Positions 34,961-58,698 are shown, counted from the stretch's first letter. The stretch is DNA of 64,000 nucleotides from Naegleria gruberi (GCA_000004985.1 GG738874.1); one strand, 5' to 3'. Notes: a model not told the origin generated them from the sequence alone. A program made the numbers and translations.

Positions 34961-36091
34961 ATGAGATCATCAAGAAAATTACTCAAACTTGCTCCATTAT
35001 TTGCTGTAGCTTCGTATGGAGTTATATCAATGAAGGATACAGATCTTGTCTCTAAATTTTTTAATTATGATCGTAAACAGTTCTATCATCAATTCATGCC
35101 AAATCATCACTTTCTAGTTCAGGCCGAGGAAGAAACTTTGAAACCACAATCTGGTGTGGTGACTGGTAACTTCCCACAAATGGCAATTATCAGCATTAAA
35201 TTGAAAGATTACAAGAATTATGAAAAGGTTTTGAAAGCAGTTTCTCTTGTTCCTTCAATTGTTGAGGAATTGACAGGAGATAAACAAGTCGATGCAGAAG
35301 ATGAATTTGCATTGCCACCTGTCATGATTAATGTTGCACTGAGTACTAGATTTTGGAACTTTTTAAATTCAAAAGATGGAGCTACCTTCAAAAAGCCAGA
35401 AGGTTACACTAAGGATTATGAAACTAAAACAGGAGAGTTTGGTTCAATGCCATATAAGGAAACTGAAATTGTCTTGCATGTAAAGGCAGAGAATACCTCA
35501 ATTTGTTATCAAGCCATTGATCAATTTTTGTCCAATCTCCCAAAGGATGCACTTGAATCAGTGAATGAACATTACGGATTCCAATATCAAGATTCAAGAG
35601 ATTTGAGCAAATTCATTGATGGTATCAATAATCCATCCGGAAATGATGATCGTTCAGTAGCTGCTCTCAATTCACAAAAGGGAAGTTTCCTCATTCATCA
35701 AAAGTGGGTCCATCACCACCATTTAGATTCCAAATTTTCAGTTAAGGATCAGGAGGCATTCGTTGGAAGGGAGAGAGTTTCTGGAGCCGAATTACCAACT
35801 CTACCACCCTCTTCACACGTTGCCAGAATGAGACGACCAAATGGTGATATCATTCCAATTGTGAGACAGAGTTTCCCTTATGGTACAGTGAGTGGAGAAC
35901 ATGGATTATTGTTCATTGCTTACAGTAATAACATTGAAAAGTATGAAACTCTATTGGATGCCATGGTTGGTAAAGTGCACGGCAAACATAATGATGCCAT
36001 CATGAAATTCTCCAATTGCCACTACTCTAATTATTATTACGTTCCATCCATCAATGAATTGAATTCTATCAAGACAAAATTTAATAAATAA
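34961..36091 (+). CDS. DyP-type (dye-decolorising) haem peroxidase with about 50-aa N-terminal hydrophobic/basic extension
   Basis: Single exon, ATG in an ACAACAATG context. It carries the DyP hallmark GxxDG-type motif KFIDGINNPSGND, a proximal His region SSHVARMRRPNGD, and the C-terminal LLFIAYSNNIEKYETLLDAMVG. The N-terminus MRSSRKLLKLAPLFAVASYGVIS looks like a signal or transit peptide. Confidence 0.8.
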   Translation: MRSSRKLLKLAPLFAVASYGVISMKDTDLVSKFFNYDRKQFYHQFMPNHHFLVQAEEETLKPQSGVVTGNFPQMAIISIKLKDYKNYEKVLKAVSLVPSIVEELTGDKQVDAEDEFALPPVMINVALSTRFWNFLNSKDGATFKKPEGYTKDYETKTGEFGSMPYKETEIVLHVKAENTSICYQAIDQFLSNLPKDALESVNEHYGFQYQDSRDLSKFIDGINNPSGNDDRSVAALNSQKGSFLIHQKWVHHHHLDSKFSVKDQEAFVGRERVSGAELPTLPPSSHVARMRRPNGDIIPIVRQSFPYGTVSGEHGLLFIAYSNNIEKYETLLDAMVGKVHGKHNDAIMKFSNCHYSNYYYVPSINELNSIKTKFNK

Positions 36092-40908: not shown

Positions 40909-43900
40909 ATGTCATCGAGAGATTTATCCTATTCATTCTTGATTGTTTCCTTGTTGTTACTTGGCATGTTGCTGGGAGTACATGCTGCTGGTCCTGCAGT
41001 TATTAATGCTAAATCAGTCATCAATGCTGTTGTTAAGGTAAGTGTTGATAGTTGAAATTCTGTCGGTTGATATCGTGTTTTTATCTCATTCAACCTTACT
41101 CCTCATTAAATTCCATCCTTAATGTTTCCATTCAATGCCAATAGAAATGTGTTTCTTCAGGCGACCCTCACTTGAGAACATTTAGTGGTACAAGATTTGA
41201 CTATTATTCTGTTGGTGAATATGTCTTGGCTGAAGCTGCCGACAAATCCATCATGATTCATGCTCGTACTGGTAAATTGAATGCTGTTTCTGGTAACATT
41301 GCTGTTGCTTTAGCACTGGACCAGGAAACAGTTTTGGAATATCATGCTAACGGTGCTTACTTTGTTATTGATGGTAAGAACGCTACCATTAAATCTGGTG
41401 AAACTGTTTCATTGGGAACTAAGGGAGCATCTGTAACATATAACAAAGGAAACGTTGCTGTTAAGAGTAGTTCAGGAGCTTCTGTTGACTTGTATGGTTG
41501 GTCCGTCCCAAACCAACTCTCATATTTTGACATTTCCTTTGAAGCTCCAACCACACTTGATATTAATTATGGTTATTGTGTCAGTCAATCAATGGGTACT
41601 CAAAAGGATGGAAGTTACTTTAACAAGCCAATTAAGAGAGTTGCATTGATCAAGACTGCTAGTATTAATGCTGAGCTCAAGGAAGCAACTCCAGAAGAAA
41701 AGAAACAAGCTCGTGCAGCATGTTCTAAGATTTCTGAAAAGGACCATCCAAATGATTTCAAATCGTGTTACACTGATGCCTTGCTCAACCCAGAACTTGC
41801 TTCAAAGTTTGCTAAGGGTATTGTTGGTATGCAAAACATGCAAAAGGTATCAATGAAGGAAGTTGCTAAGGATGCCCTTTCACAAATGGATAAGAAGGAT
41901 ATTGTCAAGCTTGTAGCTAAGGCTACTGTTTCAGAAGCTAAGAAGAATGAAGTTCCAACCGCTTCCACTCAAAAGATTACTTCTGCTTTGAACACCTTGT
42001 CAACTGACAAGTTACTTTCAACATTGGATAAGGTTATTGATAATAAGGCTACTGTAAAGATTGATCCAAAGGCCACCAAACCAGTCGAAAAGAAGATTAC
42101 TCCAGCAAAGGTTGCCGTCAAGTCTGTTGATGCTAAGGTTCCAGTTGTCATGTCTTCCACCACTCAATCTTTAAAGCCAATTAAATTGGTGGAAACTCAA
42201 AAGGTTGTTGAAAAGAAGGTTGAACAAGTTGAAAAGAAGACTGAAACCCCAAAGGTTGTCGAAAAGAAGGTTAAAACTAAGGCTGAAAAAGTTGAAACAA
42301 AACCAGTAGAGAAGAAGACCAAGCCAGTCGAAACTCCAAAGGTTGTTGAAAAGAAAACAGTTGAATCCAAGCTAGTTTCTTCACCAAAGAATTCTACTCA
42401 AACTGTTTCCAAACCAGTTTCTACTGTTAAACCAACTAGTCAGCCAAAGAAACCAGCTACCAAGCCAAGTACTAAGAATGAACAACCAAAGAAGGTACAA
42501 CCAAAGATCAGTAAGCCTGCAGCAAAGACTTCAACCTCTCCAAAAGTTGCTGCCAAGTCTGTTAACTCCAAGCCAGTTTCCGCTCAACCAAAGAAGCCAA
42601 CTTCTTCTAAGCCAATTACCAAGCCAACAATTCCAGTTATTGAAAAGAAGAATACAGCTGTTCCAAAGACAAATTCTACTCAAACTGTAAAGACTGAAAC
42701 CAAGCCAGTCTCAGAAATTAAGATTTCTTCTGTTCAATTCAAGTCAGTCAAATCACCAAAGGTTGTTTCCAAGAGTACTGAAACTATCAAACCAATTAAA
42801 CAGAAGTCTGAAAAAACGAAACTAGTAACAAAGATCGTTTCTGCTCAACCAAAGCCAACAACCAAAATATCCAAACCAGCCTCTAAAACAGAAACTCCCA
42901 AGCCTGCTGCTAAGAGTTCATCCTCTACAAAGGTTGCTGTGAAGTCTGTTAAATCAGTTGCTCCAAAGAATGCTCCTGTCAAGTCAGTTTCTCCAAAGTC
43001 TTCAACCAAGAAGCCAGTTACTGAAAAGAAGGCAACCACTTCTAAGCCTACTATCAAGACTTCAACTTCTCCAAAGGTTTCTGTAAAGTCTGTAAAATCA
43101 GTTCCAGTTAAAAAGGCTCAACCAAAGAAGTCAACCTCTTCAAAGCCGGCTACTTCTAAACCTATTACCAAACCAGTTTCTACTAAATCAACTAGTCAAC
43201 AAAAGAAGCCAACTGCTACCAAGACAAGCACTAAGAATGAACAACCAAAGAAGTCTTCAACAACTCCAAAGGTTGAGACAAAATATTTTGAAAAGAAGTC
43301 TGAAACTTCACCTATTAAGGTTGCCTCTGTTTCATCACCAAATGTTGTCAAGTCAGTTGCTGAAAAGAAGCCAGTTACTAAACCAGCTACTCCAAAGAAG
43401 ACAACTACTTCTAAGCCAGCTACAAAGACCTCTCCAAAGGTTTCTGTAAAGTCTGTAAAATCAGTTCCAGTTAAGAAGGCTCAACCAAAGAAGTCAACCT
43501 CTTCAAAGCCAGCTACTTCTAAACGTGTTACCAAACCAATTTCTACTAAACCAAGTAGTCAAGCAAAGAAGCCAACTGCTACCAAGAGTTCATCCTCTCC
43601 AAAGGTTGTTAAATCAGTTCCAGTTAAGAAGGCCCAACCAAAGATCAGTAAGCCTGCAACAACGACTTCAACCTCTCCAAAAGTTGCTGCCAAGCCAGTT
43701 TCCGCTCAACCAAAGAAGTCAACAACCTCCAAGTCTTCTGCTTCTAAATCTGCTACCAAGACTTCATCTCCAAAGGTTGCTGTAAAGTCTATCAAGTCAG
43801 TTCCAGTTAAGAAGGTTGAAGATTCAATTAAGGTTGCTTCTGTTTCATCACCAAAGATTGCTGTAAAATCTGTAAAGCCAGCTTCTCCAAAGAAACCAAC

Positions 43901-47408: not shown

Positions 47409-48230
47409 ATTTTTTTTGAGCATGAACTTGCCTTGATGTTTTAACTTGTGCGTTACGCAAAATAGGTTTAGAATGGTAATATCACACATCTACTCTACTG
47501 TGGGTATTATTAAATCATTATTTGATTCTACAGGAACGTTCAGGAGAAATTCTTGTCCTTTCAATCCTTTGGAAAAATCATTTTCTGAAATTTCTGATAA
47601 TTCCATAATTGGAGGAGATTAATTGTACCTTTGAAACCAAAAAAAAAGAAATAAAAATAAGGAAAATGAAGAATATTATCCTGCTATTGATTTGTAAAAA
47701 GAGTATTTTTTGTTGTAATAATATTAAACTTATATTCTTTCCAATTTTCAATTCTTAAAAAAAAAGCAAAACAATCCAAAGGCTTCCAATATCATCAAGC
47801 CTAACAAAAATTACAAAGCCTTTAAATTCCTCCAAACCATCAACAACTTCATCATCGACAACTATTGATAGTCGTGATGTAATTAAATTAATGTTACAAG
47901 TTTGTAGGGGAAATACCATGATTGAAGGTTATATTTGAATGGATAGAATTATCGGAAGGTTTTTAATGAATATTCATGTGATTTCTAATGATTTTAAGAG
48001 AGGAAGAACCTGCTAGATTTAAAAAGTTGGAACATGTTGTAAATAATGCAAAACATTTTGATAATTTAATTGCCTATGATATAAATATTATTGGAAACGC
48101 AATTCAATATCAAAAAGTTAAACAAGGGTGATGATTTTATTAGATCATACTATTAAGAATGTTAAAAAAGCATCGGAGAAGTCCATTATTACTCCACACC
48201 TGAAAACCTTTTCTCAAGAATTTTCACCAT

Positions 48231-48270
48231 TGTAGTGTAGCAGTTATTGTTGTAGTGTAGCAGTTGTTGT
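48231..48270. repeat. tandem duplication of a 20-mer (tgtagtgtagcagttRttgt x2) in the intergenic region upstream of gene C
   Basis: The sequence tgtagtgtagcagttattgt|tgtagtgtagcagttgttgt is visible directly, with one mismatch. Confidence 0.7.
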
Positions 48271-48402
48271 GTTTCCAGAAACCATTCTAATTTTGCTCTT
48301 TTGCAAACAACTAACATCTGACCTTCAGCATTTTAAAACGATCTCTTCCTATACTACAATACCCTTATTGTGTTCAATGCTCTCGTTAATGGCCCACTGT
48401 AA

Positions 48403-51400
48403 ATGCCACACCCCAAAGCAATGTTCAAAAAAAGAACACACACAACGTTTCTCTCTATAGTGTATGCAAAAATGATTAAGGCTAGAAGGAGTAACTTTTC
48501 ACTTTTAATTGGGGTTGTCTTGGTGTGCATGATTGCATTCTTGAGCATGTATGCACATGCCGGTAAGAGCTCATCAGCACCACCACGAACTGCTGCTCCG
48601 TCCGTGGCTAGAGCTCAACTACCTCCACAGCCAGTTTCAAGAGCACCTCCGATGGCACAACCAATTTCAAGACAGGCAACTCCACAACCTGTATCAAAAC
48701 CAACTCCAGTTTCTAAACCAGCTGCTGCTCAACCTATTGTTGCCAACGTTAATGAAAAGAAATCTTTCCCAAAGAAAGGAGATCCATCTTTTGTTGGACC
48801 TGTTCAACCAAAGAAACAATCATCAACACCAGCTACTTCTAAACCAGAAGTTCCAAAGGCAGGCGCCAAGAACAAGCCTGTCGTGGATATCAAGAAATCT
48901 AATGATGTTATAGTAGCAAATGTTAATGATAAGAAATCTGGTAGAAAGAAGGAAGAAACAAAACCTGAAAAGACTGTTGAACACAAGAAAGACAGTACAT
49001 CTAGCAAGATTGAAAAGAAATCTGAAGAATCAAAGCCAGACACCAAGGTGGAACACAAATTTGATGAAAAGAAACCTGATATCAAGTCAAAGACTGAAAA
49101 AAAGAAAGAAGAAAAGACATCTTCTCATAAGGATGATGTAAAGAATTCTGAAAAGAAGGCCCAGAAATCTGAACTTAAGGAAGATAAGAAATCTGAAAAT
49201 TATAATAAGATGACCAATGAGAAAAACAAGATGAATGATAAGAAATCTGATGTAAAGAAATCTTCAAAGAATTTAGAAGAAAATAAGAAGGAATCCGTTG
49301 AGCATAACAAGGCTAATAAGGATTCTGAAACTTCCAAACCAGATTCCAAAATGCAAGTCAAATCATCAGAAAAATCAAATTTAAAAAAGGATGAAAAAAA
49401 ATCCGAACATAAGGAGGATAAGAAATCTGATAAGAAATTTGATAAGAAAAAGAAATCTGATAACAAGAAGGATGAAAAGAAATCTGATGACAAGAAATCT
49501 ACCGAAATCAAATCTGATAAGACTGATCATAAGAAATCCAATAAGGATGATAAGAAATCAGAAAAGAAGGGTTCAACCGATAAGAAGAAGACTGATGGTG
49601 AAAAGTCAGATAAGAAGACTAAGGATGTAAAGTCTGATAATCCTGATTCTAAGAATACTAGTAAATCAAAGAAGTCTGTTGATAAGAAGAAGACTAACAC
49701 AAAGAAGGATAAGAAGACCAATAAGGAAGAAAAGAAATCTGTAGAAAAGAATGAAAAGAAAATAGGAAAGAAGTCTACAAATACAGCCACAAAGAAGGAT
49801 ACTACCAAGTCCACTAAGAAAACTGATAAGAAATCCTCTGAAAATAAGAAGACAAGTGGATCCAAAAAGGCCGAGCCTAAAAAGAAAACCAATTCAACCA
49901 AACCTGGAAAGAAATCTAGCACAAAGAAGCTCTCTAGTACGAAATCAAAATCTATTGGAAAGAAATCTGATATTAAGGAGGGTAACAAGAATGCTAAACC
50001 AAAGACCACTGATACCGGTAAGAAATCAGCTTCTGATAAGAAATCCAAGTCAGACAAGAAATCTGAAAAGAGCCCAACAAGTGTAAAAAAGGATAAGAAG
50101 AGTACCAAATCAAAAACTGAAAAAAAGTCAACAACTAGAATGAAATCCAAGGATGTTAAAAAGCCAGGAATGACACCAAAATCATTTGATAACATGTTTG
50201 CTCAACAAGCTAAAAAGTTGTCTCAACCAACAAGTCCAGTCAAACCAAACACAAAGTCTGACAAGAAGTCCAACAAGCCAAAGAAATCAAACACTGGTAA
50301 GAGGACCTATTCCAAGAAGAATGATAAGTCAAAAACTAGTTCCAAGAAACCTGGAAAGAAATCTAGCACAAAGAACCTAGCTGGTAAGAAATCAAAATCT
50401 ATTGAAAACAAATCTGATGTTAAATCCACAAAATCAGGAAAGAAGTCTTCAAAAAATACTGGCAAAAAATCTGGAAAGAAATCTACCAACAAGTCTGGAA
50501 AGAAATCAACTAAAAAGAGTAAGAACACTACTAAGTCTGGAAAGATATCCAATACTGGAAAGTCTGGAAAGAAATCAAAGAATGGTAATACGAAATCAGA
50601 TAAGAAGACCAAGAAATCAGAAACTGGTAAGAAATCAAAAAATTCCAAAGGAAAGAAGGATAGTAAGAAATCAAAGAAATCTACCAAAAAATCAGTAACG
50701 TCAACTAAAACAACTAGTAAGAAATCTAACAAGTCTGGAAAGAAGGCTTCTAAGAATACTGGCAAGAAATCAGGAAAGAAATCCAATAAGCCTGGAAAGT
50801 CAAAGAAGATACCCAAGAAATTAGGTAAGAAGGGTTCTAAAAAGGCTAACCAACCAAGCAAATCCAGTAACAAGTCTGGAAAGACCTTAAAGAATGGTAA
50901 ACCAAAGAAATCCAATACTGGAAAGACATTAAAGAATGACACATCAAAGAAATCAACTAAAAAGGGCAAGAACGGTACTAAGTCTGGAAAGAAATCAAAA
51001 TCTGGTAAGAAGACTAAGAAATCAGAAACTGGAAAGAATTCTGGAAAGAAATCAAATACTGGAGAGAAAAACAACAATTCTTCTAAGAATAATAAGAAAA
51101 AGAACTTGAATGGAAAGAAGGACAAGTCCAAAAACAAATCAACTAATTTAAAGAATAATAAGAACACCAATAAGAAGAGTGCAAACAAATCAAGGAATAA
51201 CAAGAACATGACTGAACAAAAGGAAGAATCTGAATCATCTTTTGGCACACCAGATTCTGAGGAGAGAGAAACTCCATATTCTGAAGATGGACCAATAATA
51301 TTATTAAGAGATGATAACATCTTATCTAATTCTTACAAACAAAGAGGAATTGAAATTGAAGATGAACCAGTTAAAGTAGTTGAAAAGAATAGTATGAAGG

Positions 51401-52608
51401 TCAAGCAAGTCGATAGTGAAATTGAACTATCTAGTGATCAAGATGAAGAAAGGCCACTCCAAATTTCTAAGAGGCAAGTTGAAAAGTCAATTCAAAGAAA
51501 CGATTTTGAAGACAATGAGGAACCAAAGGTCTCTAAATCTAAACAAGACGCTGAAAAATCCGAAGTTGAAAAGACCATTCAAAGAAAAGAGAAACACCAA
51601 GTTGAAGATGAAGAAGAAGCCCCTCAAAAGAAGTCTGTAAAAGGAAAGCATGATAAGAAATCTGGAAAGAAATTGAAGAATGAAAGATCAAAGAAGTCTG
51701 GAAAGTCTGTTGCTAAGAAAGGCAACAGGTCTGGAAAGAAATCAAATAATTCCACAGGAAAGAATGGCAATAAGAAATCAAAGAAATCTGGAAAGAACAC
51801 CAAAACAACAAGTAAGAAGTACGGAAAGAAGCTCACTAAAAAGAATACCAAGAAATTAGGTAGGAAGGGTTCTAAGAAATCTGTAATTAAACCAAAGAAA
51901 TCCAATCTTTCTTATGGTAAGGATTCTGGAAAGAAATCTTCCAAACAATCCAGAAAAGTGGAATATGAAGATGTTGAATATCCAATTCAAAGAAACCAAA
52001 AAAAAAGAAAACAACAAGTTGATGAAAAACCTCCTCAAAAGAAGTCTAGAAATATTTCAAAGAGACAGCAGCAAGATGAAGAAAGATTTATTCTACAATA
52101 TGAAAAGAAATCTGGACACAGAAAGGTTAATAAGAAATCATCCAAGCAAGAATTCGAAGAAAACCGAGCTCCAAAGAGGCAATATGTTGAATTTGATGAA
52201 GAAGTTCCTCAAGAGAATTCCAAATCTGGAATGGATATCTTGACCTATAGAACAAATCCAATCAATATCAATAACCATCAACCTCAAAAAAGAATGATCA
52301 ATAGAATTACCCCTCAAACAGTATCTCAATTAAGACCAATCGAATCAAATGCCCCAGCTATTACTAATCCACAAATTTATCATCCATTTGTTAGACCAAA
52401 TAACTTTGTTACCACTGCTCCACCAGCTATTGCTCGACCAAATAACTTTACTCCTCAAACACAATCTCATGATGAAACTATGAATCTGCAAAATATTGGT
52501 ATCAATCTTGTCACCAACAATCCAACTCCTACAGCTCCAAATCATAATGTTAACAGAGCCAGAGTTGTACAAGCTTTGAGAAAATTGATTGCCTCTATGA
52601 AGAAATAA
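48403..52608 (+). CDS. giant Lys/Ser-rich low-complexity protein with N-terminal signal-anchor and conserved C-terminal module (family C/D, member C)
   Basis: Single 1401-codon ORF; in-frame ATGs at 48403 and 48472 (the latter with an AAAAATG context, MIKARRSNFSLLIGVVLVCMIAFLSMYAHAG). After a Pro/Ala/Gln-rich stretch come about 1000 aa of KKS/DKKS/GKKS repeats. It ends in a roughly 110-aa non-repetitive module (...INRITPQTVSQLRP...NLQNIGINLVTNNPTPTAPNHNVNRARVVQALRKLIASMKK) shared with the next gene. Confidence 0.6.
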   Translation: MPHPKAMFKKRTHTTFLSIVYAKMIKARRSNFSLLIGVVLVCMIAFLSMYAHAGKSSSAPPRTAAPSVARAQLPPQPVSRAPPMAQPISRQATPQPVSKPTPVSKPAAAQPIVANVNEKKSFPKKGDPSFVGPVQPKKQSSTPATSKPEVPKAGAKNKPVVDIKKSNDVIVANVNDKKSGRKKEETKPEKTVEHKKDSTSSKIEKKSEESKPDTKVEHKFDEKKPDIKSKTEKKKEEKTSSHKDDVKNSEKKAQKSELKEDKKSENYNKMTNEKNKMNDKKSDVKKSSKNLEENKKESVEHNKANKDSETSKPDSKMQVKSSEKSNLKKDEKKSEHKEDKKSDKKFDKKKKSDNKKDEKKSDDKKSTEIKSDKTDHKKSNKDDKKSEKKGSTDKKKTDGEKSDKKTKDVKSDNPDSKNTSKSKKSVDKKKTNTKKDKKTNKEEKKSVEKNEKKIGKKSTNTATKKDTTKSTKKTDKKSSENKKTSGSKKAEPKKKTNSTKPGKKSSTKKLSSTKSKSIGKKSDIKEGNKNAKPKTTDTGKKSASDKKSKSDKKSEKSPTSVKKDKKSTKSKTEKKSTTRMKSKDVKKPGMTPKSFDNMFAQQAKKLSQPTSPVKPNTKSDKKSNKPKKSNTGKRTYSKKNDKSKTSSKKPGKKSSTKNLAGKKSKSIENKSDVKSTKSGKKSSKNTGKKSGKKSTNKSGKKSTKKSKNTTKSGKISNTGKSGKKSKNGNTKSDKKTKKSETGKKSKNSKGKKDSKKSKKSTKKSVTSTKTTSKKSNKSGKKASKNTGKKSGKKSNKPGKSKKIPKKLGKKGSKKANQPSKSSNKSGKTLKNGKPKKSNTGKTLKNDTSKKSTKKGKNGTKSGKKSKSGKKTKKSETGKNSGKKSNTGEKNNNSSKNNKKKNLNGKKDKSKNKSTNLKNNKNTNKKSANKSRNNKNMTEQKEESESSFGTPDSEERETPYSEDGPIILLRDDNILSNSYKQRGIEIEDEPVKVVEKNSMKVKQVDSEIELSSDQDEERPLQISKRQVEKSIQRNDFEDNEEPKVSKSKQDAEKSEVEKTIQRKEKHQVEDEEEAPQKKSVKGKHDKKSGKKLKNERSKKSGKSVAKKGNRSGKKSNNSTGKNGNKKSKKSGKNTKTTSKKYGKKLTKKNTKKLGRKGSKKSVIKPKKSNLSYGKDSGKKSSKQSRKVEYEDVEYPIQRNQKKRKQQVDEKPPQKKSRNISKRQQQDEERFILQYEKKSGHRKVNKKSSKQEFEENRAPKRQYVEFDEEVPQENSKSGMDILTYRTNPININNHQPQKRMINRITPQTVSQLRPIESNAPAITNPQIYHPFVRPNNFVTTAPPAIARPNNFTPQTQSHDETMNLQNIGINLVTNNPTPTAPNHNVNRARVVQALRKLIASMKK

Positions 52609-52714
52609 ACAATTAAGATTTGGTGTGTTTGAAAATTTAATTTTAACGGCTCTGGGAATATTTAAGAAAATTCACACAAGTGATTAATAATTAAGTTATG
52701 ATAAGAATTAGTGA

Positions 52715-54805
52715 ACGTTCATTACACATTCACTTGAATGGCTATCGTATCTTAAACCAGTAGCACAACCAACTGTTGAAAAGAAATCTGTTGCCAAGAC
52801 TGACAAGAGTCAAGTCAAATCAGCAACTGAAAAGAAGAAGGCCGATGTAACACCAAAAGAAATTGCTAAACCAACAAAGAAGCCAGTTGATACCAAGCCA
52901 GCTAAACCTGTTGTCGATACCAAGAAATCTGATGCCAAGAAGTCAACTGATAAATCTGGTAAGCCAAAGACTGGTGCCAAGAAAACTACTGGTAAGAACA
53001 CTGATGCCAAGAAGTCAACTAATAAGAAGACTGATGCAAAGACAGGAAAGTCTGCTACTGCCAAGAAGACTCCAGCTATGGCAACCAAGTCTGTTCAAAA
53101 TAAGACTATTGCCAAGAAATCTGATGCCAAGAAGTCAACTGATAAAACTGGAAAGCCAAAGACTGCTACCAAGAAGACTGCCAAGAAAACCATTGATAAG
53201 GCAAAGTCTGGTGTAAAGACTAATGCCAAGAAGACTGGTTTGAAGGGAAAGTCAACAAAGAAAGATGTCACCAAGTCAACTAAAAAGTCTGACAAGAAGC
53301 CATCTGCCAAGAAGGATAAGTCTGCCAAGAAGTCATCTGATAAGACTGTAAAATCAAAGAAATCATCTGAAAAGAAAACCGGTAAAAAATCCAAGAAAAC
53401 TGGTGTAAAGAAGACTGATAAGAAGGGAAAGAAGGATAAAAAGCCAACTAAAAAGACTCATAAGAAAACCAAGTTAAGTGCATTGACTAGAGCTAGAGGC
53501 CACGTCTTTAAGAAAAAGAAGAAGAATTTGACAACTGAAAACCCATCCCAATCATCCCAATCTCCAATTCTTGAACATATTCCAATGGAATCAGATGGTT
53601 TGTCAAGAAGACAAAGATATGAACGTTCACTTAAAGAAAAATCAAAGAAATCCGAAAACAATGAAGAGAATGTCCAAAAGGAATCTGAAGTTATTGCAAC
53701 TCCTAGTTCTGAAGACATTTCCTCACCAATTAATTCTGAAAGAGTAGCTACTTCTGAAGATTCACCGGTCCAAAACAATTCCGAAGAAAGATCTTCCTCA
53801 AACGATAACATCTCATCCAATTCTGTTAATCAAAGAGGACTTGAAATTGAAGATGATGTTAAAGTTGAAAAGAAACAACGTGTTGGAGTCAAGCAAGTTG
53901 ATGAAGAAATTGAATCTAAGGAAGAAATCAAGTCTGACGAAAAGAAATCTGCTAAGGTTTATGGAGAGTCTGATAAGAAACCTAGAAAGGATGAATCTGA
54001 AGAAGAATTGGAAGAGCCAACCTCTGTCCAAAAGAAATCCAAGAAGTCAACTAAGAAATCAAGAAATCTTACGAAGAAGACTGGTAAGAAGGGTGAGAAA
54101 TCAACCAAAAAGACTGCTCCAAAGAAGAATAGCAATAAGACAGGTAAGCAGACAGGTAAGAAGGGTAAGAAATCTGGAAACAAATCAAGAAAGGTTGTTA
54201 AGAAATCTGGAAACAAGTCAAACAAGAATGAAAAGAAACCAACCAAGAAGACTGATAAGAAGGGTAAGAAATCTGGAAACAAGTCTAACAAGGGTGCTAA
54301 GAGATCCACTAAGAAATCAGGAAAGGGTGAAAAGAAATCCATGAATACTCAAAATAGAAGAATCAATAGAATTGCTCCTCAATCAGTAACTCAATTCAAA
54401 CCAATGGAAATTGTTGATACTCCAGCTATCAGTAAGGCACAAATTTCCCAACCAGTTATCACTCAACAAGATGTCGAACCAACTACTGGTACTCAAAGAC
54501 AACTTCCAACTGGTGCAATGAATGTTCAAAACATTGACATTAATCTCATCACAAACAATCCAACTCCTACTGCTCCAGATAGTCCATCTCCATCCGAGAT
54601 TGCATTGGTCAGAAGATTTTTGGCTAATAGAAGAAGATTGGAAAAGAAGCAAGCTCCACAACAACCAAAGGAAGAACCAATGAATGTTTCTAATGTTGTC
54701 ACTGTTGGTATGCCTCAACCTGCTCAAAAGCCAACCAAACAAAATATTGATAGAGCTAAAGTTGCTGCTGCTTTGAGAAATTTGATTGCTTCTGTTAATA
54801 AATGA
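52715..54805 (+). CDS. Lys-rich low-complexity protein, member D of the C/D family; 5' end and start codon undefined (possible partial tandem duplicate)
   Basis: The frame is open from 52715 (after TGA) to TGA 54803-54805. There is no ATG before 53078 and no signal-peptide exon in the 107 bp separating it from gene C. The body is AKKSDAKKSTDKTGKPKT repeats. The C-terminal module (...INRIAPQSVTQFKP...NVQNIDINLITNNPTPTAPD...RAKVAAALRNLIASVNK) is homologous to that of gene C. Confidence 0.45.
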   Translation, partial: TFITHSLEWLSYLKPVAQPTVEKKSVAKTDKSQVKSATEKKKADVTPKEIAKPTKKPVDTKPAKPVVDTKKSDAKKSTDKSGKPKTGAKKTTGKNTDAKKSTNKKTDAKTGKSATAKKTPAMATKSVQNKTIAKKSDAKKSTDKTGKPKTATKKTAKKTIDKAKSGVKTNAKKTGLKGKSTKKDVTKSTKKSDKKPSAKKDKSAKKSSDKTVKSKKSSEKKTGKKSKKTGVKKTDKKGKKDKKPTKKTHKKTKLSALTRARGHVFKKKKKNLTTENPSQSSQSPILEHIPMESDGLSRRQRYERSLKEKSKKSENNEENVQKESEVIATPSSEDISSPINSERVATSEDSPVQNNSEERSSSNDNISSNSVNQRGLEIEDDVKVEKKQRVGVKQVDEEIESKEEIKSDEKKSAKVYGESDKKPRKDESEEELEEPTSVQKKSKKSTKKSRNLTKKTGKKGEKSTKKTAPKKNSNKTGKQTGKKGKKSGNKSRKVVKKSGNKSNKNEKKPTKKTDKKGKKSGNKSNKGAKRSTKKSGKGEKKSMNTQNRRINRIAPQSVTQFKPMEIVDTPAISKAQISQPVITQQDVEPTTGTQRQLPTGAMNVQNIDINLITNNPTPTAPDSPSPSEIALVRRFLANRRRLEKKQAPQQPKEEPMNVSNVVTVGMPQPAQKPTKQNIDRAKVAAALRNLIASVNK

Positions 54806-54810
54806 ATTCT

Positions 54811-55974
54811 TTAAAATTGACAATTTATCATTAAATCTGTTAGTTTCTGAGCTATCATTGATTGATAGCATCTTTTCAATGTTGTCTTCTCGAATAAACA
54901 ATTAGAAATATAGTGGTTATTTTTCTCGTTACTATTCACTACATATTTAACCACTTGTGAAATGTCAAAATCAGATATCGACTTGATAATGTGATATTCT
55001 GACACATTTCCATTACCTGTTCGTAAATAGTTAGATATAATTGTATTGACAACATCCCTCTCGTGATAATCGTTTACAATTTGTTCAAGTTCTGGCATTA
55101 ATTGAGCTTCAAAAGGTCTTTCAAATTTGATATAATTCCTCAACTTTTTCATCATTAAATCTGGTTTGGTAAAGAGAAGAATTATTCTCGTATTCGAATG
55201 ATTTCCAATCAATTCCTTGTAGAGTTTCAAACTTTCGTCCATTCTATTAACCTTCTCATCTCCATAACATGTTTGATTAAATTCTGAAAGAGAAACTACA
55301 TAAATCAAAACTGAAACTTGATTTTCCAAACAATATCTCCACTTTCGTCTTTCATGAATTTTTCCACCTGCTGTCACAAATGTCAATCTATTCTTATTAA
55401 AAATAACACTATAATCAATTATTCCAGAAGATCCTCCCTTAATATAAATATCTGGAATAAACCTCTCTCGATTCTTAATTTTTGACACAAAAATGTCAAC
55501 ATTCTCAAATAAATTCAATGTATCCTGATTAGTTCTATAAATCTTTCTAAATCTATCATCATTCCACAATGCAACAAGTGCATGATCATCAAAATTTCCA
55601 TTCGGTACCTTTTCATTAATAATAAACTCAACTGTCCTATCACTCGATGACGATGACGATGAGTACAAAATTTGTTGAATGATAATTCGTGAAATTGTAT
55701 TCGTATCGACGTGATAGAAAGAGTCGGAAGTTTTATCGATGGAAGTAAAATGTTCCTTCTTTCTATTTTCATATCGAATCATTTCACAGATGGTTGTCTT
55801 TCCACTTGATGTGTTTCCAAGGAGGACGAATCTCTTTTCTTCCACGTCGTCATTAGCAAGATTATTCGAATGGTTATTCGAAGGAGAAGACGAAATAAAC
55901 GTGTTTTGAATTGCGTTACTGTTAACGACGTTGGCGTGTTGCTGTTGTTGAAGTGTTGAGAGCTTCCCACCCAT
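54811..55974 (-). CDS. divergent heterotrimeric G-protein alpha-subunit-like protein with non-canonical catalytic residues
   Basis: ATG in an AAAAAAAAATG context. MGGKLST is an N-myristoylation consensus. The P-loop is LLGNTSSGKTT. The block PDIYIKGGSSGIIDYSVIFNKNRLTFVTAGGKIHERRKWRYCLENQVSVLIYVVSLSEF...VNRMDESLKLYKELI...ILLFTKPD is colinear with G-alpha switch I / switch II / NKxD regions (DVLRTRVKTTGI...DVGGQRSERKKWIHCF...NRMHESMKLF...ILFLNKKD). The switch-II Gln is Lys, the switch-I Arg is absent, and NKKD is TKPD. 387 aa. Confidence 0.75.
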   Translation of the reverse strand: MGGKLSTLQQQQHANVVNSNAIQNTFISSSPSNNHSNNLANDDVEEKRFVLLGNTSSGKTTICEMIRYENRKKEHFTSIDKTSDSFYHVDTNTISRIIIQQILYSSSSSSSDRTVEFIINEKVPNGNFDDHALVALWNDDRFRKIYRTNQDTLNLFENVDIFVSKIKNRERFIPDIYIKGGSSGIIDYSVIFNKNRLTFVTAGGKIHERRKWRYCLENQVSVLIYVVSLSEFNQTCYGDEKVNRMDESLKLYKELIGNHSNTRIILLFTKPDLMMKKLRNYIKFERPFEAQLMPELEQIVNDYHERDVVNTIISNYLRTGNGNVSEYHIIKSISDFDISQVVKYVVNSNEKNNHYISNCLFEKTTLKRCYQSMIAQKLTDLMINCQF

Positions 55975-56728: not shown

Positions 56729-58698
56729 ATGTCCATCGGAAAGTTAATACAGTCATCAGCCTTGTTAAGTCAAGTTGCTGGACAGGCTAATCAATTGTTT
56801 GATTCAATACTTTCCTATTTATTAATTAATTTAGGTTCTTCATCATCTTTATCAACAACAACTATAGCACAACAAGATACAAACTTGTTGCACAATATCA
56901 TCAATAACAACAACAATATTATTGGATCATCCTTTGGAACAACAACCAATGATATAAATAATAGGACTGAAGAAATAATTTTGGTGAGAGGAGTAACACT
57001 TACAATGGATATTACCTTCTTGTTGGTTCCTTTAATAATCTCGATTGCCATTCCGATCCTCTATGAAATGCTTGTTGTTCGACAATTCCTGGATAAGATT
57101 AAAAAGAAGTTTAAAAGAAAGGCAAGAACACGTTCAACCTATTACGATAAGTTTGGTCAATATCAAGATAGTATTGAGGCATTTGCACTTCAAGATATTG
57201 AAAAGGAGGAGAATGCTAGAAGCACATTGTTTTGGAAATTGGTTTGCTTTTGTGGATGGAGAAATTTCAAAAACTTTTTCTTTACTACTCCATTAGGTGC
57301 AGATAATTCATTGGCAGCAATCAATGAGAATGGAAGCTTTGTAATGTATCATTCAACACCCTTTCAATTATTGGATAGAATGTGTTCCAGTTGCTGCACA
57401 ACTGTCAGTACATCATCCAGTGAAGATCTCGCACCACTCTTTCCATCAGAAAACAATGTGAAAATTCGATCTGTTACATCCAAAAGCGTTCATCAATATA
57501 ACATTTCATGCTGGATTTCTAGTTCAATACTCTTGCTAATACGTATTGGTAATTTCGTATTGGCAGTAGTGACAGCTGTCTACTTGGGAAAGGATGAAAT
57601 ATTCAAGAAGGGCAATCACAATCCTTGGTTCGAATATACCAAATATCTTACCAACAATACTTTCAATCTCTTCCTTGTCTATTCATCACTCGTGCTATTC
57701 TACCATATTATTCTAATGATGACTGCAGGTGTTCTTGTGATCAAGAAGAGAAAACCAACAAGTGGTAACACAGCTACAGTTACTTTTCCATATCATGACA
57801 TTATGCCAAGAAATTTGGAAAAAGTTTTAGAGGTAATTGGTAACATGTTGTGGTTCTTATCAGAGATGAACCTTGTAACTTCTGCTCTTGTTTCTATTGG
57901 GTATGTTATTATTGCTATTGTATAATATTTACCATTAACCTGAAAATTATTTTGAATAATTATTATAATTATTAATGAACTTGCTGAATGATTATCTTAA
58001 GTTTTTGGACAATCATCATACCAACAGGAAATTTCCCAACGGATAGAATTAACTTTATCATTATATCATCACATGGATTGACATTTATTGGAAGTTTTAT
58101 AGAGGCCTTCATGTCAGACTTTTATTTTAAATTCTGGCATGTCTTCATCATTGGCCTTTATTCACCAATTTATCTTCTCTATGTTATTGGATTGAAAGAA
58201 GGTGGATACATTACATCATTCCCATACGGAAATCTTCTCGATTATGACAAGGGAGATTTAGCTTTGGCTGGACATTTCACATTCATCATTGGCATTTATT
58301 TACTCTTCGCCTTGTTCTGGCTCGTCTTGACAGTTTTTAAAAAGTTGATGGTCATCAAGTTTTGTGCCAGTTATGCCTTCCCTTCAACACTTGGACATCG
58401 TTCTTCTATTCCTCATAGTGCATCATCAGGATCATTGGAAAGAAGAGCCAGTTCGACCCCATACTATCAATCCACTTTTAAAGTTGGTTCTCCCGATAGA
58501 ACAATTTCACCAACTCTTCTCCAACAACATGCTCGTTCCATCAGTTTATCGAGTAGTGGTTATGGTGATGAAGAGGAGGAACAATTTACATCACTCCCAG
58601 CCAATTCAACCCTACAAACAACACCTACTCCATCCTCTACAGCTCAGCATCACAAGAGAACCTTTTCTTATGGCAGTACAAGCCATAGCCAGCAATAA
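56729..58698 (+). CDS. seven-transmembrane-helix membrane protein, unknown family; 2 exons 56729..57900 and 58002..58698
   Basis: Exon 1 ends in phase 2 (...SIG) before GTATGT at 57901. The 101-nt intron ends CTTAAG at 58001; the join gives ...ALVSIG|GFWTIIIPTG. The roughly 622-aa product has an Asn-rich N-terminus. TM1 is about residues 95-117; a roughly 150-aa loop follows; then come six further hydrophobic helices. The C-terminal roughly 110 aa are S/T/P-rich. Confidence 0.6.

What the first reader, a model, noticed from the sequence alone, without database searches (positions are those of the whole stretch)
48403..54805. Second pair of Lys/Ser-rich giant genes sharing a distinct C-terminal module; downstream copy lacks any 5' start (partial tandem duplication?)
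Gene C (48403..52608) and gene D (52715..54805) lack the vWD N-terminus. They share a different, non-repetitive roughly 110-aa C-terminal module: INRI.PQ[TS]V[ST]Q..P ... N[LV]QNI.INL[VI]TNNPTPTAP ... RA.V..ALR.LIAS..K. Gene D's reading frame opens only 107 bp after C's stop, with no ATG, signal peptide or splice acceptor that I could pair with an upstream exon. D therefore looks like a 5'-truncated tandem duplicate, which could be a pseudogene, a read-through product or a separately initiated isoform. Together with A/B this gives four K-rich giant genes within 18 kb, interrupted only by an F-box/LRR gene on the opposite strand. That pattern points to a lineage-specific, rapidly evolving locus.
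Basis: partly seen in the sequence, partly recalled or inferred. Interest (0 to 1): 0.65.

Follow-up and report, generated by a model that had tools for sequence, protein, structure and literature searches.

The report
Old tandem paralogues, orphan lysine-rich proteins
Two neighbouring genes of the amoeba Naegleria gruberi encode related, very lysine-rich, mostly unstructured proteins of an orphan family; the second copy lacks a visible start and export signal yet has clearly been kept intact by selection, so it is a gene-model puzzle and not a new kind of biology.

Summary
The window is Naegleria gruberi nuclear DNA. ORF C (48403..52608, 1401 aa) and open frame D (52715..54805, 696 codons) are collinear paralogues. 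They share an acidic block (76% nt identity), a C-terminal motif block (BLASTP E=1e-16) and a terminal helix. D has no in-frame ATG before 53078, no hydrophobic segment and no canonical 5' exon in the 106-nt spacer.

- The duplication is old (dS about 0.5-1.2), not recent.
- D is not a decayed pseudogene. Neutral drift of only 5% per site would be expected to create about 6 stop codons in it, and there are none.
- An environmental relative (P0003) is closer to D than to C.
- There are no near-identical repeats, which argues against assembly collapse.

The C-terminal "module" is not a folded domain (AlphaFold pLDDT 61, pTM 0.20). It consists of two linear motifs plus amphipathic helices. An exhaustive profile search found only two other members. 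There are no Pfam, NCBIfam or PDB matches.

C has a signal peptide. D lacks exactly that part. How D is expressed cannot be settled without transcripts; the options are internal Met122, an unconventional mini-exon, or a borrowed 5' exon from C. Interest is modest: an orphan low-complexity family with an unresolved gene model.

The parts
48377..48460 (+). Candidate short first exon of C (ATG 48377..48398) followed by a candidate 62-nt intron (48399..48460, ACT|GTAAAT...CTATAG|TG). The ATG at 48403 that opens ORF C lies inside this donor site. Tentative.
   Evidence: The donor is at the 92nd and the acceptor at the 93rd percentile on a matrix built from 11 introns in the window that join ORFs. 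Splicing is in frame and gives MLSLMAHLYAKMIKARR... No transcript evidence.
48403..52608 (+). Gene C: a 1401-aa ORF, K 26%, S 14%, pI 10.2. Order of parts: signal peptide, Pro-rich stretch, Lys/Ser-rich degenerate repeats, acidic island, second Lys-rich tract, C-terminal motif module.
48472..48561 (+). Predicted signal peptide or signal anchor of C (MIKARRSN-FSLLIGVVLVCMIAFLSMY-AHA, aa 24-53). A GGTAAGA donor-like site follows immediately, with its GT at 48563, phase 1.
   Evidence: (KD19 maximum 2.48). The assignment is by inspection (basic n-region, 19-residue hydrophobic core, A-x-A), not by a dedicated predictor.
51310..51432 (+). Acidic conserved block of C (DDNILSNSYKQRGIEIEDEPVKV..VKQVDSEIELS).
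   Evidence: (76% nt identity to D).
52297..52605 (+). C-terminal module of C: INRITPQTVSQLRP motif, MNLQNIGINLVTNNPTPTAP motif (52480..52539) and terminal amphipathic helix (52549..52605).
52609..52714 (+). C-D spacer of 106 nt. AATAAA overlaps C's stop codon. No in-frame ATG, no hydrophobic reading frame, and stop codons in all three frames.
52715..54805 (+). Gene D: an open frame of 696 codons. The Lys-rich, coding-like sequence begins at about 52760. K 24%, pI 10.3, no hydrophobic segment. Same order of modules as C, minus the signal peptide.
52760..52763 (+). Two adjacent candidate 3' splice sites at the 5' edge of D's coding-like sequence (..AAACCAG|TAG|CA). Both are phase 1. 52763 scores at the 93rd percentile of all AG sites and 52760 at the 61st.
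   Evidence: Inferred only.
53078..53080 (+). First in-frame ATG of D (codon 122), which would give a 575-aa product. It is preceded by six out-of-frame ATGs between C's stop and this codon.
52920..53197 (+). In-frame 86-nt repeat pair (52920..53005 and 53112..53197, 85% identity, 192 nt apart) that straddles Met122. The sequence upstream of the first ATG is therefore the same kind of coding repeat as the sequence downstream.
   Evidence: same codon usage upstream and downstream of Met122.
53801..53917 (+). Acidic conserved block of D (NDNISSNSVNQRGLEIEDDVKV..VKQVDEEIES).
54362..54802 (+). C-terminal module of D: INRIAPQSVTQFKP, MNVQNIDINLITNNPTPTAP plus a first helix (54518..54637), an insertion of about 45-55 aa, then a second helix ending in LIASVNK (54680..54802).

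Best explanation
C and D are two old, diverged tandem paralogues of an orphan protein family confined to Naegleria or close relatives. The proteins are very basic (pI about 10), rich in Lys/Ser/Thr and largely disordered.

Both copies have the same order of parts: a Pro/Lys-rich N-terminal stretch, Lys-rich degenerate repeats, a short conserved acidic island, a second Lys-rich tract, and a conserved C-terminal end. That end consists of two linear motifs (INRIxPQxVxQ, N-x-QN-x-x-INL-x-T..P-x-AP) and one or two amphipathic helices.

C is the complete copy. It starts with a signal peptide, so its polycationic body is most likely exported or surface-exposed. The same applies to the neighbouring Lys-rich genes A and B, which also have a signal peptide, and B at least carries a vWD domain. 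D is a shorter copy that lacks exactly the signal-peptide portion.

D is not a decayed relic. Its frame of 681-696 codons has been held open by selection for essentially all the time since it split from C. D is therefore most likely an expressed gene whose 5' end is not readable from the DNA alone. In decreasing order of my preference, the options are: initiation from a transcript that starts inside or just upstream of the frame (Met122 at 53078, or an unconventional mini-exon at ATG 52698); a 5' exon borrowed from gene C; or very recent inactivation.

Shown: the paralogy, the collinearity, the age of the split, the intact frame, the absence of a start codon and signal peptide in D, the absence of a globular fold in the module, and the narrow distribution of the family.

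Inferred: secretion of C, current expression of D, and the biochemical role. I propose that these are polycationic disordered matrix, surface or adhesive proteins, with the conserved C-terminal helix and motifs acting as the docking or assembly element.
For: - Organism: the Dyp-peroxidase ORF at 34961..36091 is identical to N. gruberi XP_002676075. The neighbouring genes are ordinary eukaryotic genes: G-alpha, Sec8, CCT, kinesin, Est1, PAS-cyclase and RGS.
- Paralogy and collinearity: three blastn blocks lie in the same order, at 76%, 66% and 76% identity. BLASTP gives E=1e-16. See also alignments A1 and A2. There is a weak collinear match between C aa 64-120 and D's first ~55 codons.
- Age: dS is 1.22 in the acidic block, 0.50 in the C-terminal block and 0.69 pooled. 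dN/dS is 0.31, 0.63 and 0.49 respectively.
- Selection on D's frame: there are 334 one-step-to-stop neighbours. P(no stop) is 0.004 at 5% drift and 1e-5 at 10%. The other five frames have maximum open runs of 33-198 codons, against 681.
- Sequence upstream of Met122 looks coding: same codon usage (AAG 75% upstream, 71% downstream; ACT preferred) and an in-frame repeat shared with the downstream part.
- The D type is old: environmental P0003 matches D at 62 bits and 41% identity, including D's first helix, against 44 bits and 35% for C.
- Not a folded domain: AlphaFold2 gives pLDDT 60.7 and pTM 0.20, with only two helices.
- Orphan status: no Pfam, NCBIfam or PDB hits. Only P0002 and P0003 were found among 1.84 billion representatives.
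- Signal peptides: C aa 24-53. A and B each have a signal-peptide exon followed by a short intron. B has a VWD hit at 24.4 bits, above the cut-off of 22.9.
Against: - No transcript or peptide evidence for C or D was available.
- Neither protein is in the searched protein collections, so there is not even an annotation to lean on.
- D has no in-frame ATG for 121 codons. Six out-of-frame ATGs precede Met122, which is unfavourable for scanning initiation from a transcript that starts in the spacer.
- The mini-exon models use poor splice sites. Donor GTGAAC is at the 50th percentile and GTATCT at the 79th; acceptor 52760 is at the 61st.
- dN/dS was measured only on the blocks that can be aligned, which biases it downwards. 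It also averages over both lineages.
- The functional proposal (exported polycationic matrix or surface protein) rests on composition and a signal peptide assigned by inspection.
- A D protein without a signal peptide would sit in a different compartment from C, which is awkward for a shared function.
Confidence: 0.55

Rival explanations
1. D is a recently inactivated, 5'-truncated pseudogene. A deletion, or the original duplication breakpoint, removed the start codon and signal peptide. The remaining frame is still open only because too little time has passed for stop codons to accumulate.
For: - No in-frame ATG for 121 codons, no signal peptide and no canonical 5' exon.
- Six upstream out-of-frame ATGs.
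- D is absent from the protein collections.
- The homology with C starts just after C's signal peptide.
Against: - The truncation would have to be very recent, less than about 1-2% neutral divergence, whereas the C/D split is old (dS 0.5-1.2).
- D has its own lineage-specific features: an insertion with a helix that the environmental D-like homologue shares.
- If the truncation dates from the duplication itself, the intact frame is statistically untenable (P about 1e-10 to 1e-17).
Confidence: 0.2
2. D is an alternative 3' body of the C transcription unit. Transcription starts at C's promoter, and a 5' exon of C is spliced over the whole body of C (about 4.2-4.4 kb) onto the acceptor at 52760/52763. 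The 5' exon would be either the candidate mini-exon ending at 48398 or the signal-peptide exon ending at 48562. If the signal-peptide exon is the one used, D acquires C's signal peptide as well; the mini-exon would supply only a start codon.
For: - Both candidate donors are phase 1, as is D's acceptor, so the junctions are in frame. They would read ...YAHA-V/A-AQPTVEKK or MLSLMAH-L/S-AQPTV.
- The acceptor at 52763 scores at the 93rd percentile. The donors score at the 90th-92nd.
- D's homology to C begins just after the signal peptide.
- In the neighbouring genes A and B the signal peptide sits on its own exon, so an ancestral intron at this position is plausible.
Against: - All 11 introns in the window that join ORFs are 43-146 nt long. 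A 4.2-kb intron would be an extreme outlier.
- In-frame GGTAAG (Gly-Lys) occurs 8 times in C and 7 times in D, and it is always phase 1. The phase match is therefore close to a 1-in-3 coincidence.
- Both donors score below every training donor (3.8-4.3, against at least 6.4).
- No transcript data.
Confidence: 0.1
3. C and D are one gene, or an artefact of mis-assembly, for example a collapsed or mis-joined repeat in low-complexity DNA.
For: - The Lys-rich tracts are repetitive.
- A separate 1421-bp N. gruberi scaffold carries a 90%-identical copy of C's last 122 codons. The assembler therefore did not merge everything from this gene family.
Against: - C and D are only 66-76% identical even in their best blocks, so they could not be confused with each other by an assembler.
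- Both copies end at homologous stop codons (LIASMKK* and LIASVNK*). C's stop is therefore a genuine C-terminus.
- No repeat longer than about 120 nt or above 86% identity exists in 48-55 kb.
- The in-frame readthrough of C's stop meets another stop after 7 codons.
Confidence: 0.03
4. The open frames are chance products of A-rich low-complexity DNA and do not encode protein.
For: - Strong AT skew and AAG/AAA-rich sequence.
- Long antisense ORFs also occur across C, for example 50307..51320 on the minus strand, 337 aa.
Against: - Open frames of 1401 and 696 codons, against at most 198 codons in D's other frames.
- Non-repetitive blocks are conserved between C and D with dN below dS.
- The module is conserved in an unrelated environmental contig and in a second N. 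gruberi scaffold annotated as a protein.
Confidence: 0.02

Closest known systems
Genes A and B of the same locus (36.4-40.4 kb and 40.9-45.4 kb): Lys-rich proteins with a signal peptide and a GDPH / vWD-type N-terminus
   Same: Same strand and same 18-kb cluster. Similar composition (K 21-26%, S 13-14%, pI 10.2-10.4). N-terminal signal peptide. Long degenerate Lys-rich repeats. A conserved non-repetitive C-terminus.
   Different: No detectable sequence homology to C or D outside the low-complexity tracts. A and B have a GDPH/vWD-type N-terminal region (a VWD hit for B) and a coiled-coil-like C-terminus. C and D have neither. In A and B the signal peptide is on a separate exon.
Secreted mucin-like and other low-complexity repeat proteins encoded by tandem paralogues (general class; from my own knowledge)
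   Same: A signal peptide, a very long and compositionally biased disordered repeat region that turns over quickly, short conserved terminal modules, tandem gene copies and lineage restriction.
   Different: The bias here is Lys/Ser/Thr/Asn (polycationic), not the Pro/Thr/Ser of mucins. There are no Cys-rich, vWD or cystine-knot domains in C or D. Glycosylation cannot be tested here. D has no signal peptide.
Linker-histone-like Lys/Ala/Ser/Pro-rich tails and other polycationic nucleic-acid-binding disordered proteins (from my own knowledge)
   Same: Composition and charge, especially D's N-terminal part (K 30%, T 16%, A 12%, P 8%). As it reads, D has no signal peptide and many NLS-like Lys clusters.
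   Different: No linker-histone globular domain or any other Pfam domain. C carries a signal peptide. The conserved acidic island and C-terminal motifs have no counterpart in these proteins.
Partial (5'-truncated) tandem gene duplicates, and loci where a downstream gene shares a 5' exon with an upstream one, such as the cholinergic ChAT/VAChT locus (from my own knowledge)
   Same: The downstream copy lacks its own start. The copies are on the same strand and adjacent. The homology begins inside the parent gene. A phase-compatible acceptor lies at the edge of the copy.
   Different: Exon sharing is not demonstrated here. It would need an intron about 30-100 times longer than the 11 introns seen in this window.

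Membership tests
vWD-domain proteins (Pfam PF00094), the family of neighbours A/B | A VWD domain with the GDPH-type motif | tested here: not met
   Pfam scans of full-length C and D, of C's N-terminus and of both C-terminal modules gave no hit, even at E<=1. B's N-terminus does hit VWD at 24.4 bits.
Pseudogene (unprocessed, 5'-truncated) | Disabling lesions in the frame (stop codons or frameshifts) or relaxed constraint | tested here: not met
   There are no stops in 696 codons, although 5.6 would be expected after only 5% neutral drift. dN/dS is 0.31-0.63 in the alignable blocks.
Pseudogene (unprocessed, 5'-truncated) | Loss of start codon, promoter or first exon | tested here: met
   No in-frame ATG before codon 122, no canonical donor with an ATG exon in the spacer, and no signal-peptide remnant.
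Pseudogene (unprocessed, 5'-truncated) | Absence of transcription or translation | not testable with these tools
   No transcript data are accessible. N. gruberi RNA-seq exists as ENA PRJEB23822 (PMC6142364).
Partial tandem duplication | Adjacent same-strand copies with collinear homology that starts inside the parent gene | tested here: met
   Three collinear blocks, plus a weak N-terminal match that starts at C aa 64, just after the signal peptide.
Partial tandem duplication | Junction signature: the spacer after copy 1 is homologous to the flank after copy 2 | tested here: inconclusive
   The local alignment of 52609..52770 against 54806..55100 scores no better than shuffles (264 of 300 shuffles reach it). 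At dS of about 0.7, neutral sequence would no longer be alignable in any case.
Secreted or surface low-complexity (mucin-like) proteins | N-terminal signal peptide | tested here: inconclusive
   C has a basic n-region, a 19-residue hydrophobic core (KD 2.48) and A-H-A, assigned by inspection without a dedicated predictor. D has none (maximum KD 0.45).
Secreted or surface low-complexity (mucin-like) proteins | Dense O-glycosylation of Ser/Thr/Pro-rich repeats | not testable with these tools
   Composition only: S 11-14% and T 7-10%.
Linker histone / H1-like | Winged-helix globular domain (Pfam Linker_histone) | tested here: not met
   No Pfam hit at E<=0.01 for C or D.
   AlphaFold2 on alignment A2 gave mean pLDDT 60.7 and pTM 0.20, with two isolated helices and the rest coil. 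The alignment has only 4 sequences, so this is weak negative evidence.

The most novel reading that the evidence does not exclude
D has no promoter or start of its own. It is expressed by splicing a 5' exon of gene C onto the acceptor at 52760/52763, across an intron of about 4.2-4.4 kb that contains the entire body of C. If the exon used is C's signal-peptide exon, one promoter and one signal peptide would serve two mutually exclusive protein bodies. That arrangement could arise from a partial tandem duplication whose breakpoint fell in an ancestral intron just after the signal peptide. It would be highly unusual for the short-intron genome of Naegleria.
Probability: 0.08. Interest if true: 0.6.

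Novelty: new member of a known kind. Interest (0 to 1): 0.3.

Why it matters
The practical value lies in annotation. Two substantial genes of the model amoeba N. gruberi appear to be missing from the protein sets I could search. One of them is a clear case where an ORF-based or ab initio gene model will fail, because the body is conserved but no start is visible.

Biologically, the locus adds an orphan family of exported polycationic disordered proteins, clustered with two other Lys-rich proteins that carry a signal peptide and a GDPH/vWD-type N-terminus. This makes it a candidate locus for Naegleria surface, matrix or cyst-wall material. If D proved to borrow C's 5' exon, it would be a neat example of how a partial duplication is rescued by exon sharing. 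None of this changes a general principle.

Tried and rejected
- Homology search with D's last 328 aa and with full-length C. Nothing was found. The full-length C query hit the 8000-candidate limit because of Lys-rich words, so that search was poorly chosen.
- Exact look-ups of 16 ORF variants, including antisense ORFs across C and D and alternative starts. Only the Dyp peroxidase is on record. I therefore could not recover the official gene models. The look-up of encoding contigs holds no N. gruberi context.
- A metagenome scan with the module alignment gave 224 pattern matches, none confirmed.
- Exhaustive enumeration of ATG/GT/AG combinations upstream of D gave 390 in-frame combinations. None had a consensus donor and none encoded a hydrophobic peptide.
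- The best-looking intron in the spacer is 52623..52763 (donor at the 97.7th percentile, acceptor at the 93rd, 141 nt). It has no ATG-containing exon upstream in the required frame: reading by eye, a TGA at 52598 closes it. It cannot supply a start.
- I looked for a remnant of C's signal peptide in the spacer and found none.
- I looked for junction homology between the spacer and D's 3' flank and found none.
- I tested the idea that D's C-terminal insertion is an internal duplication of 'motif 2 plus helix'. The score is not significant (131 of 1000 shuffles reach it).
- Readthrough of C's stop codon is rejected: the next stop follows after 7 codons.
- Near-cognate initiation at ACG 52715 is unlikely: poor context (T at -3 and T at +4).
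- Rfam and tRNA scans of the window found nothing.
- Literature searches for Lys-rich Naegleria proteins and for the accession numbers of P0002 returned nothing relevant.

Full report
**Source and context**

The ORF at 34961..36091 is identical to the N. gruberi protein XP_002676075/EFC43331, which lies on a 401,612-bp scaffold. The rest of the window encodes ordinary eukaryotic proteins: G-alpha, Dyp peroxidase, LRR, Sec8, CCT chaperonin, kinesin, Est1, a PAS-adenylate/guanylate cyclase, RGS and VWA proteins. GC content is 31-39%. There are no tRNA or Rfam hits. This is therefore an ordinary, gene-dense stretch of the Naegleria gruberi nuclear genome.

Introns here are short. I identified eleven introns that join long ORFs in frame. 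They are 43-146 nt long, with donors GTAAGT, GTATGT, GTAAAT or GTGAGT, and with acceptors that nearly always end in [AT]A[TC]AG.

**Check of the observation**

ORF C runs from 48403 to 52608 (1401 aa). Frame D is open from 52715 to 54805 (696 codons). C's stop and the opening of D's frame are separated by 106 nt. D's first in-frame ATG is at 53078, codon 122.

All the quoted C-terminal motifs are present. The similarity is real:
- BLASTP on the terminal parts gives E=1e-16.
- blastn finds three collinear blocks. The second is the main C-terminal block (66%). The third is the extreme C-terminus (76%).
- Full-length BLASTP with composition correction finds nothing significant in the Lys-rich tracts. 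Those tracts are degenerate 12-99-nt repeats that differ between the copies.
- Without composition correction, C aa 64-120 align weakly but collinearly with D's first ~55 coding-like codons. D's homology therefore seems to start just after C's signal peptide.

**The proteins**

Both are extremely basic and compositionally biased. C has K 26%, S 14% and pI 10.2. D has K 24%, S 11%, T 10% and pI 10.3. In both, a conserved acidic island interrupts the positive charge (charge profile).

C begins with a typical signal peptide or signal anchor: MIKARRSN, then a 19-residue hydrophobic core, then AHA (aa 24-53; KD 2.48). D has no hydrophobic stretch at all (maximum 0.45).

The C-terminal 'module' is not a folded domain. 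AlphaFold2 on the four-sequence alignment gives pLDDT 60.7 and pTM 0.20, with only two isolated helices. It is better described as two linear motifs plus amphipathic helices.

D carries an insertion of about 45-55 aa that contains an extra helix. I tested whether this is an internal duplication and the result is not significant.

There are no Pfam, NCBIfam or PDB matches.

**Distribution of the family**

A profile of the module was searched exhaustively against 1.84 billion representative proteins. It found only two true relatives.
- P0002 is N. gruberi EFC35286, 122 aa, on a 1421-bp scaffold. It is 90% identical to C's last 125 residues, so it is a second allele or a very recent copy of C.
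- P0003 is a 141-aa protein on a 604-bp ENA metagenome contig.
- A third hit, P0004, is an unrelated repeat protein at E=2e-4.

P0003 is closer to D (62 bits, 41%, collinear through D's first helix) than to C (44 bits, 35%). A word-indexed search with the four-sequence alignment added nothing. A JGI metagenome scan was also negative.

Neither C nor D, in any of the forms I tried, is in the protein collections. Since the exhaustive profile search would have found any model that contains either module, C and D appear to be unannotated or mis-modelled in the available N. gruberi protein sets.

**Age and selection**

Nei-Gojobori estimates on the alignable codons:

| Block | dS | dN | dN/dS |
|---|---|---|---|
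| Acidic block | 1.22 | 0.37 | 0.31 |
| C-terminal block | 0.50 | 0.31 | 0.63 |
| Pooled | 0.69 | 0.34 | 0.49 |

This is an old duplication. D's 681 coding-like codons have 334 single-substitution routes to a stop codon. Neutral drift of 5% per site predicts 5.6 stops (P of none = 0.004), 10% predicts 11 (P = 1e-5), and half the pooled dS predicts 38 (P about 4e-17). The five other frames of the same DNA are open for at most 33-198 codons. D's frame has therefore been protected by selection for nearly all its history. A pseudogene reading is tenable only if the inactivation is very recent.

**The 5' end of D**

The region between the frame opening and Met122 behaves like coding sequence. It has the same codon preferences as the rest of D. 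It also contains one copy of an in-frame 86-nt repeat whose partner lies downstream of Met122.

No satisfactory start is visible:
- The spacer has stop codons in all frames and no hydrophobic peptide.
- Enumeration of all ATG/GT/AG combinations gave no model with consensus splice sites.
- On a position matrix built from the eleven window introns, the mini-exon models score poorly. The model with ATG 52698, donor GTGAAC and acceptor 52760 scores at the 50th and 61st percentiles. The model with ATG 52738 and donor GTATCT scores at the 79th.
- The acceptor at 52763 (CCAGTAG|CA) is respectable (93rd percentile). So is a donor at 52623 (97.7th percentile), which would define a 141-nt intron. The required frame upstream of that donor is closed by a TGA at 52598 and holds no ATG.
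- Met122 is preceded by six out-of-frame ATGs. It would work only for a transcript that starts within a few tens of nucleotides of it.

Two donors in C's 5' region are phase-compatible with D's acceptor. One is at 48399, a canonical-looking GTAAAT that also defines a candidate 62-nt intron ending at 48460. The other is at 48563, a GGTAAGA directly after the predicted signal-peptide cleavage site. These allow a speculative shared-exon model. However, that model needs an intron of about 4.2 kb in a genome whose local introns are at most 146 nt. In addition, in-frame GGTAAG (Gly-Lys) is common in these genes and is always phase 1.

**Assembly artefact and fusion**

C and D end at homologous stop codons (LIASMKK* and LIASVNK*), so C's stop marks a genuine C-terminus. 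Readthrough of that stop meets another stop after 7 codons. No repeats long or similar enough to cause an assembly collapse exist in 48-55 kb. The test for junction homology between the spacer and D's 3' flank is uninformative at this divergence.

**Conclusion**

The interpretation needs revision.
- C and D are old, collinear tandem paralogues of an orphan, lineage-restricted family of polycationic disordered proteins.
- D lacks exactly the signal-peptide/start portion, yet it is under selection.
- How D is expressed is an open gene-model question that existing RNA-seq (PRJEB23822) could settle in minutes.

The functional reading is inference. It holds that C, like the signal-peptide-bearing neighbours A and B, is an exported matrix or surface protein, and that the conserved acidic island and the C-terminal motifs and helices are interaction elements. 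It rests on composition, on a signal peptide assigned by inspection, and on the genomic neighbourhood.

Noticed in passing
window 48374-48475: The ATG at 48403 that opens ORF C sits inside a canonical-looking donor (ACT|GTAAATGCC). A 62-nt candidate intron (48399..48460, ending CTATAG) would join an upstream mini-exon (ATG 48377) in frame, giving MLSLMAHLYAKMIKARR... C's true start may therefore be 48377 or 48472 and not 48403.
   Followed up: partly
window 36423-36595 and 40909-41144: Genes A and B each have a separate first exon that encodes a signal peptide (MLKNSRAGLLTLLLFIACLII.. and MSSRDLSYSFLIVSLLLLGMLLGVHA..). It is followed by a short intron of 50 nt (A) or 107 nt (B). Exon 2 then starts with C(T/V)S(W/S)GDPH. 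The plain ORF coordinates (36707.. and 41172..) miss these parts. B's N-terminus passes the Pfam VWD threshold. A gives only a weak RGM_C match at the GDPH site.
   Followed up: partly
P0002 (N. gruberi EFC35286, 1421-bp scaffold) versus window 52231-52605: The N. gruberi assembly holds a second copy of C's last 122 codons, 90% identical at the protein level with three one-residue indels. It lies on a tiny unplaced scaffold and is either a divergent haplotype or a third family member. It is the only family member that is annotated.
   Followed up: partly
window 48403-54805: Neither C nor D, nor any protein that contains their C-terminal modules from this scaffold, is present in the protein collections searched. 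Both genes seem to be unannotated or mis-modelled in the public N. gruberi protein set.
   Followed up: partly
window 52623-52763: An intron-like interval lies in the C-D spacer, with a good donor (TTG|GTGTGT, 97.7th percentile), a fair acceptor (CCAGTAG|CA, 93rd percentile) and a typical length of 141 nt. No ATG-containing exon lies upstream in the required frame. It could be a UTR intron of C or D.
   Followed up: partly
window 54803-54813: D's stop codon (54803-54805) and the stop of the convergent G-alpha gene (ORF 54811..55974, minus strand) are only 5 nt apart. Their 3' UTRs must therefore overlap.
   Followed up: no
No F-box domain was detected.
   Followed up: no
window 48230-48270: A perfect-looking 20-nt tandem repeat (TTGTAGTGTAGCAGTTATTG, 2 copies, 95% identity) lies in the 913-bp intergenic region upstream of C.
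   Followed up: no
window 49200-51320 (minus strand) and 53458-54901 (minus strand): Long antisense ORFs (up to 337 aa) run across C and D. They are by-products of the AAG/AAA-rich sense strand, whose antisense codons are CTT/TTT. None is on record as a protein.
   Followed up: yes
window 56729-58698: ORFs 56729..57925 (weak CASP-like membrane domain) and 57988..58698 are probably exons of one gene, joined by an intron that starts at 57901 (TGG|GTATGT) and ends at 58046 (GGATAG).
   Followed up: no
L001 1-604 (ENA ERZ12289978 contig): In the environmental relative, the D-like ORF (ATG at 74) overlaps the stop of an upstream ORF in another frame (..IKAWKEDE*, ending at 81). Its own frame stays open and Lys-rich up to the contig start. 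A new signal-peptide-like ORF starts about 50 nt after its stop. Contig coverage is only 1.3x, so a frameshift error cannot be excluded.
   Followed up: partly
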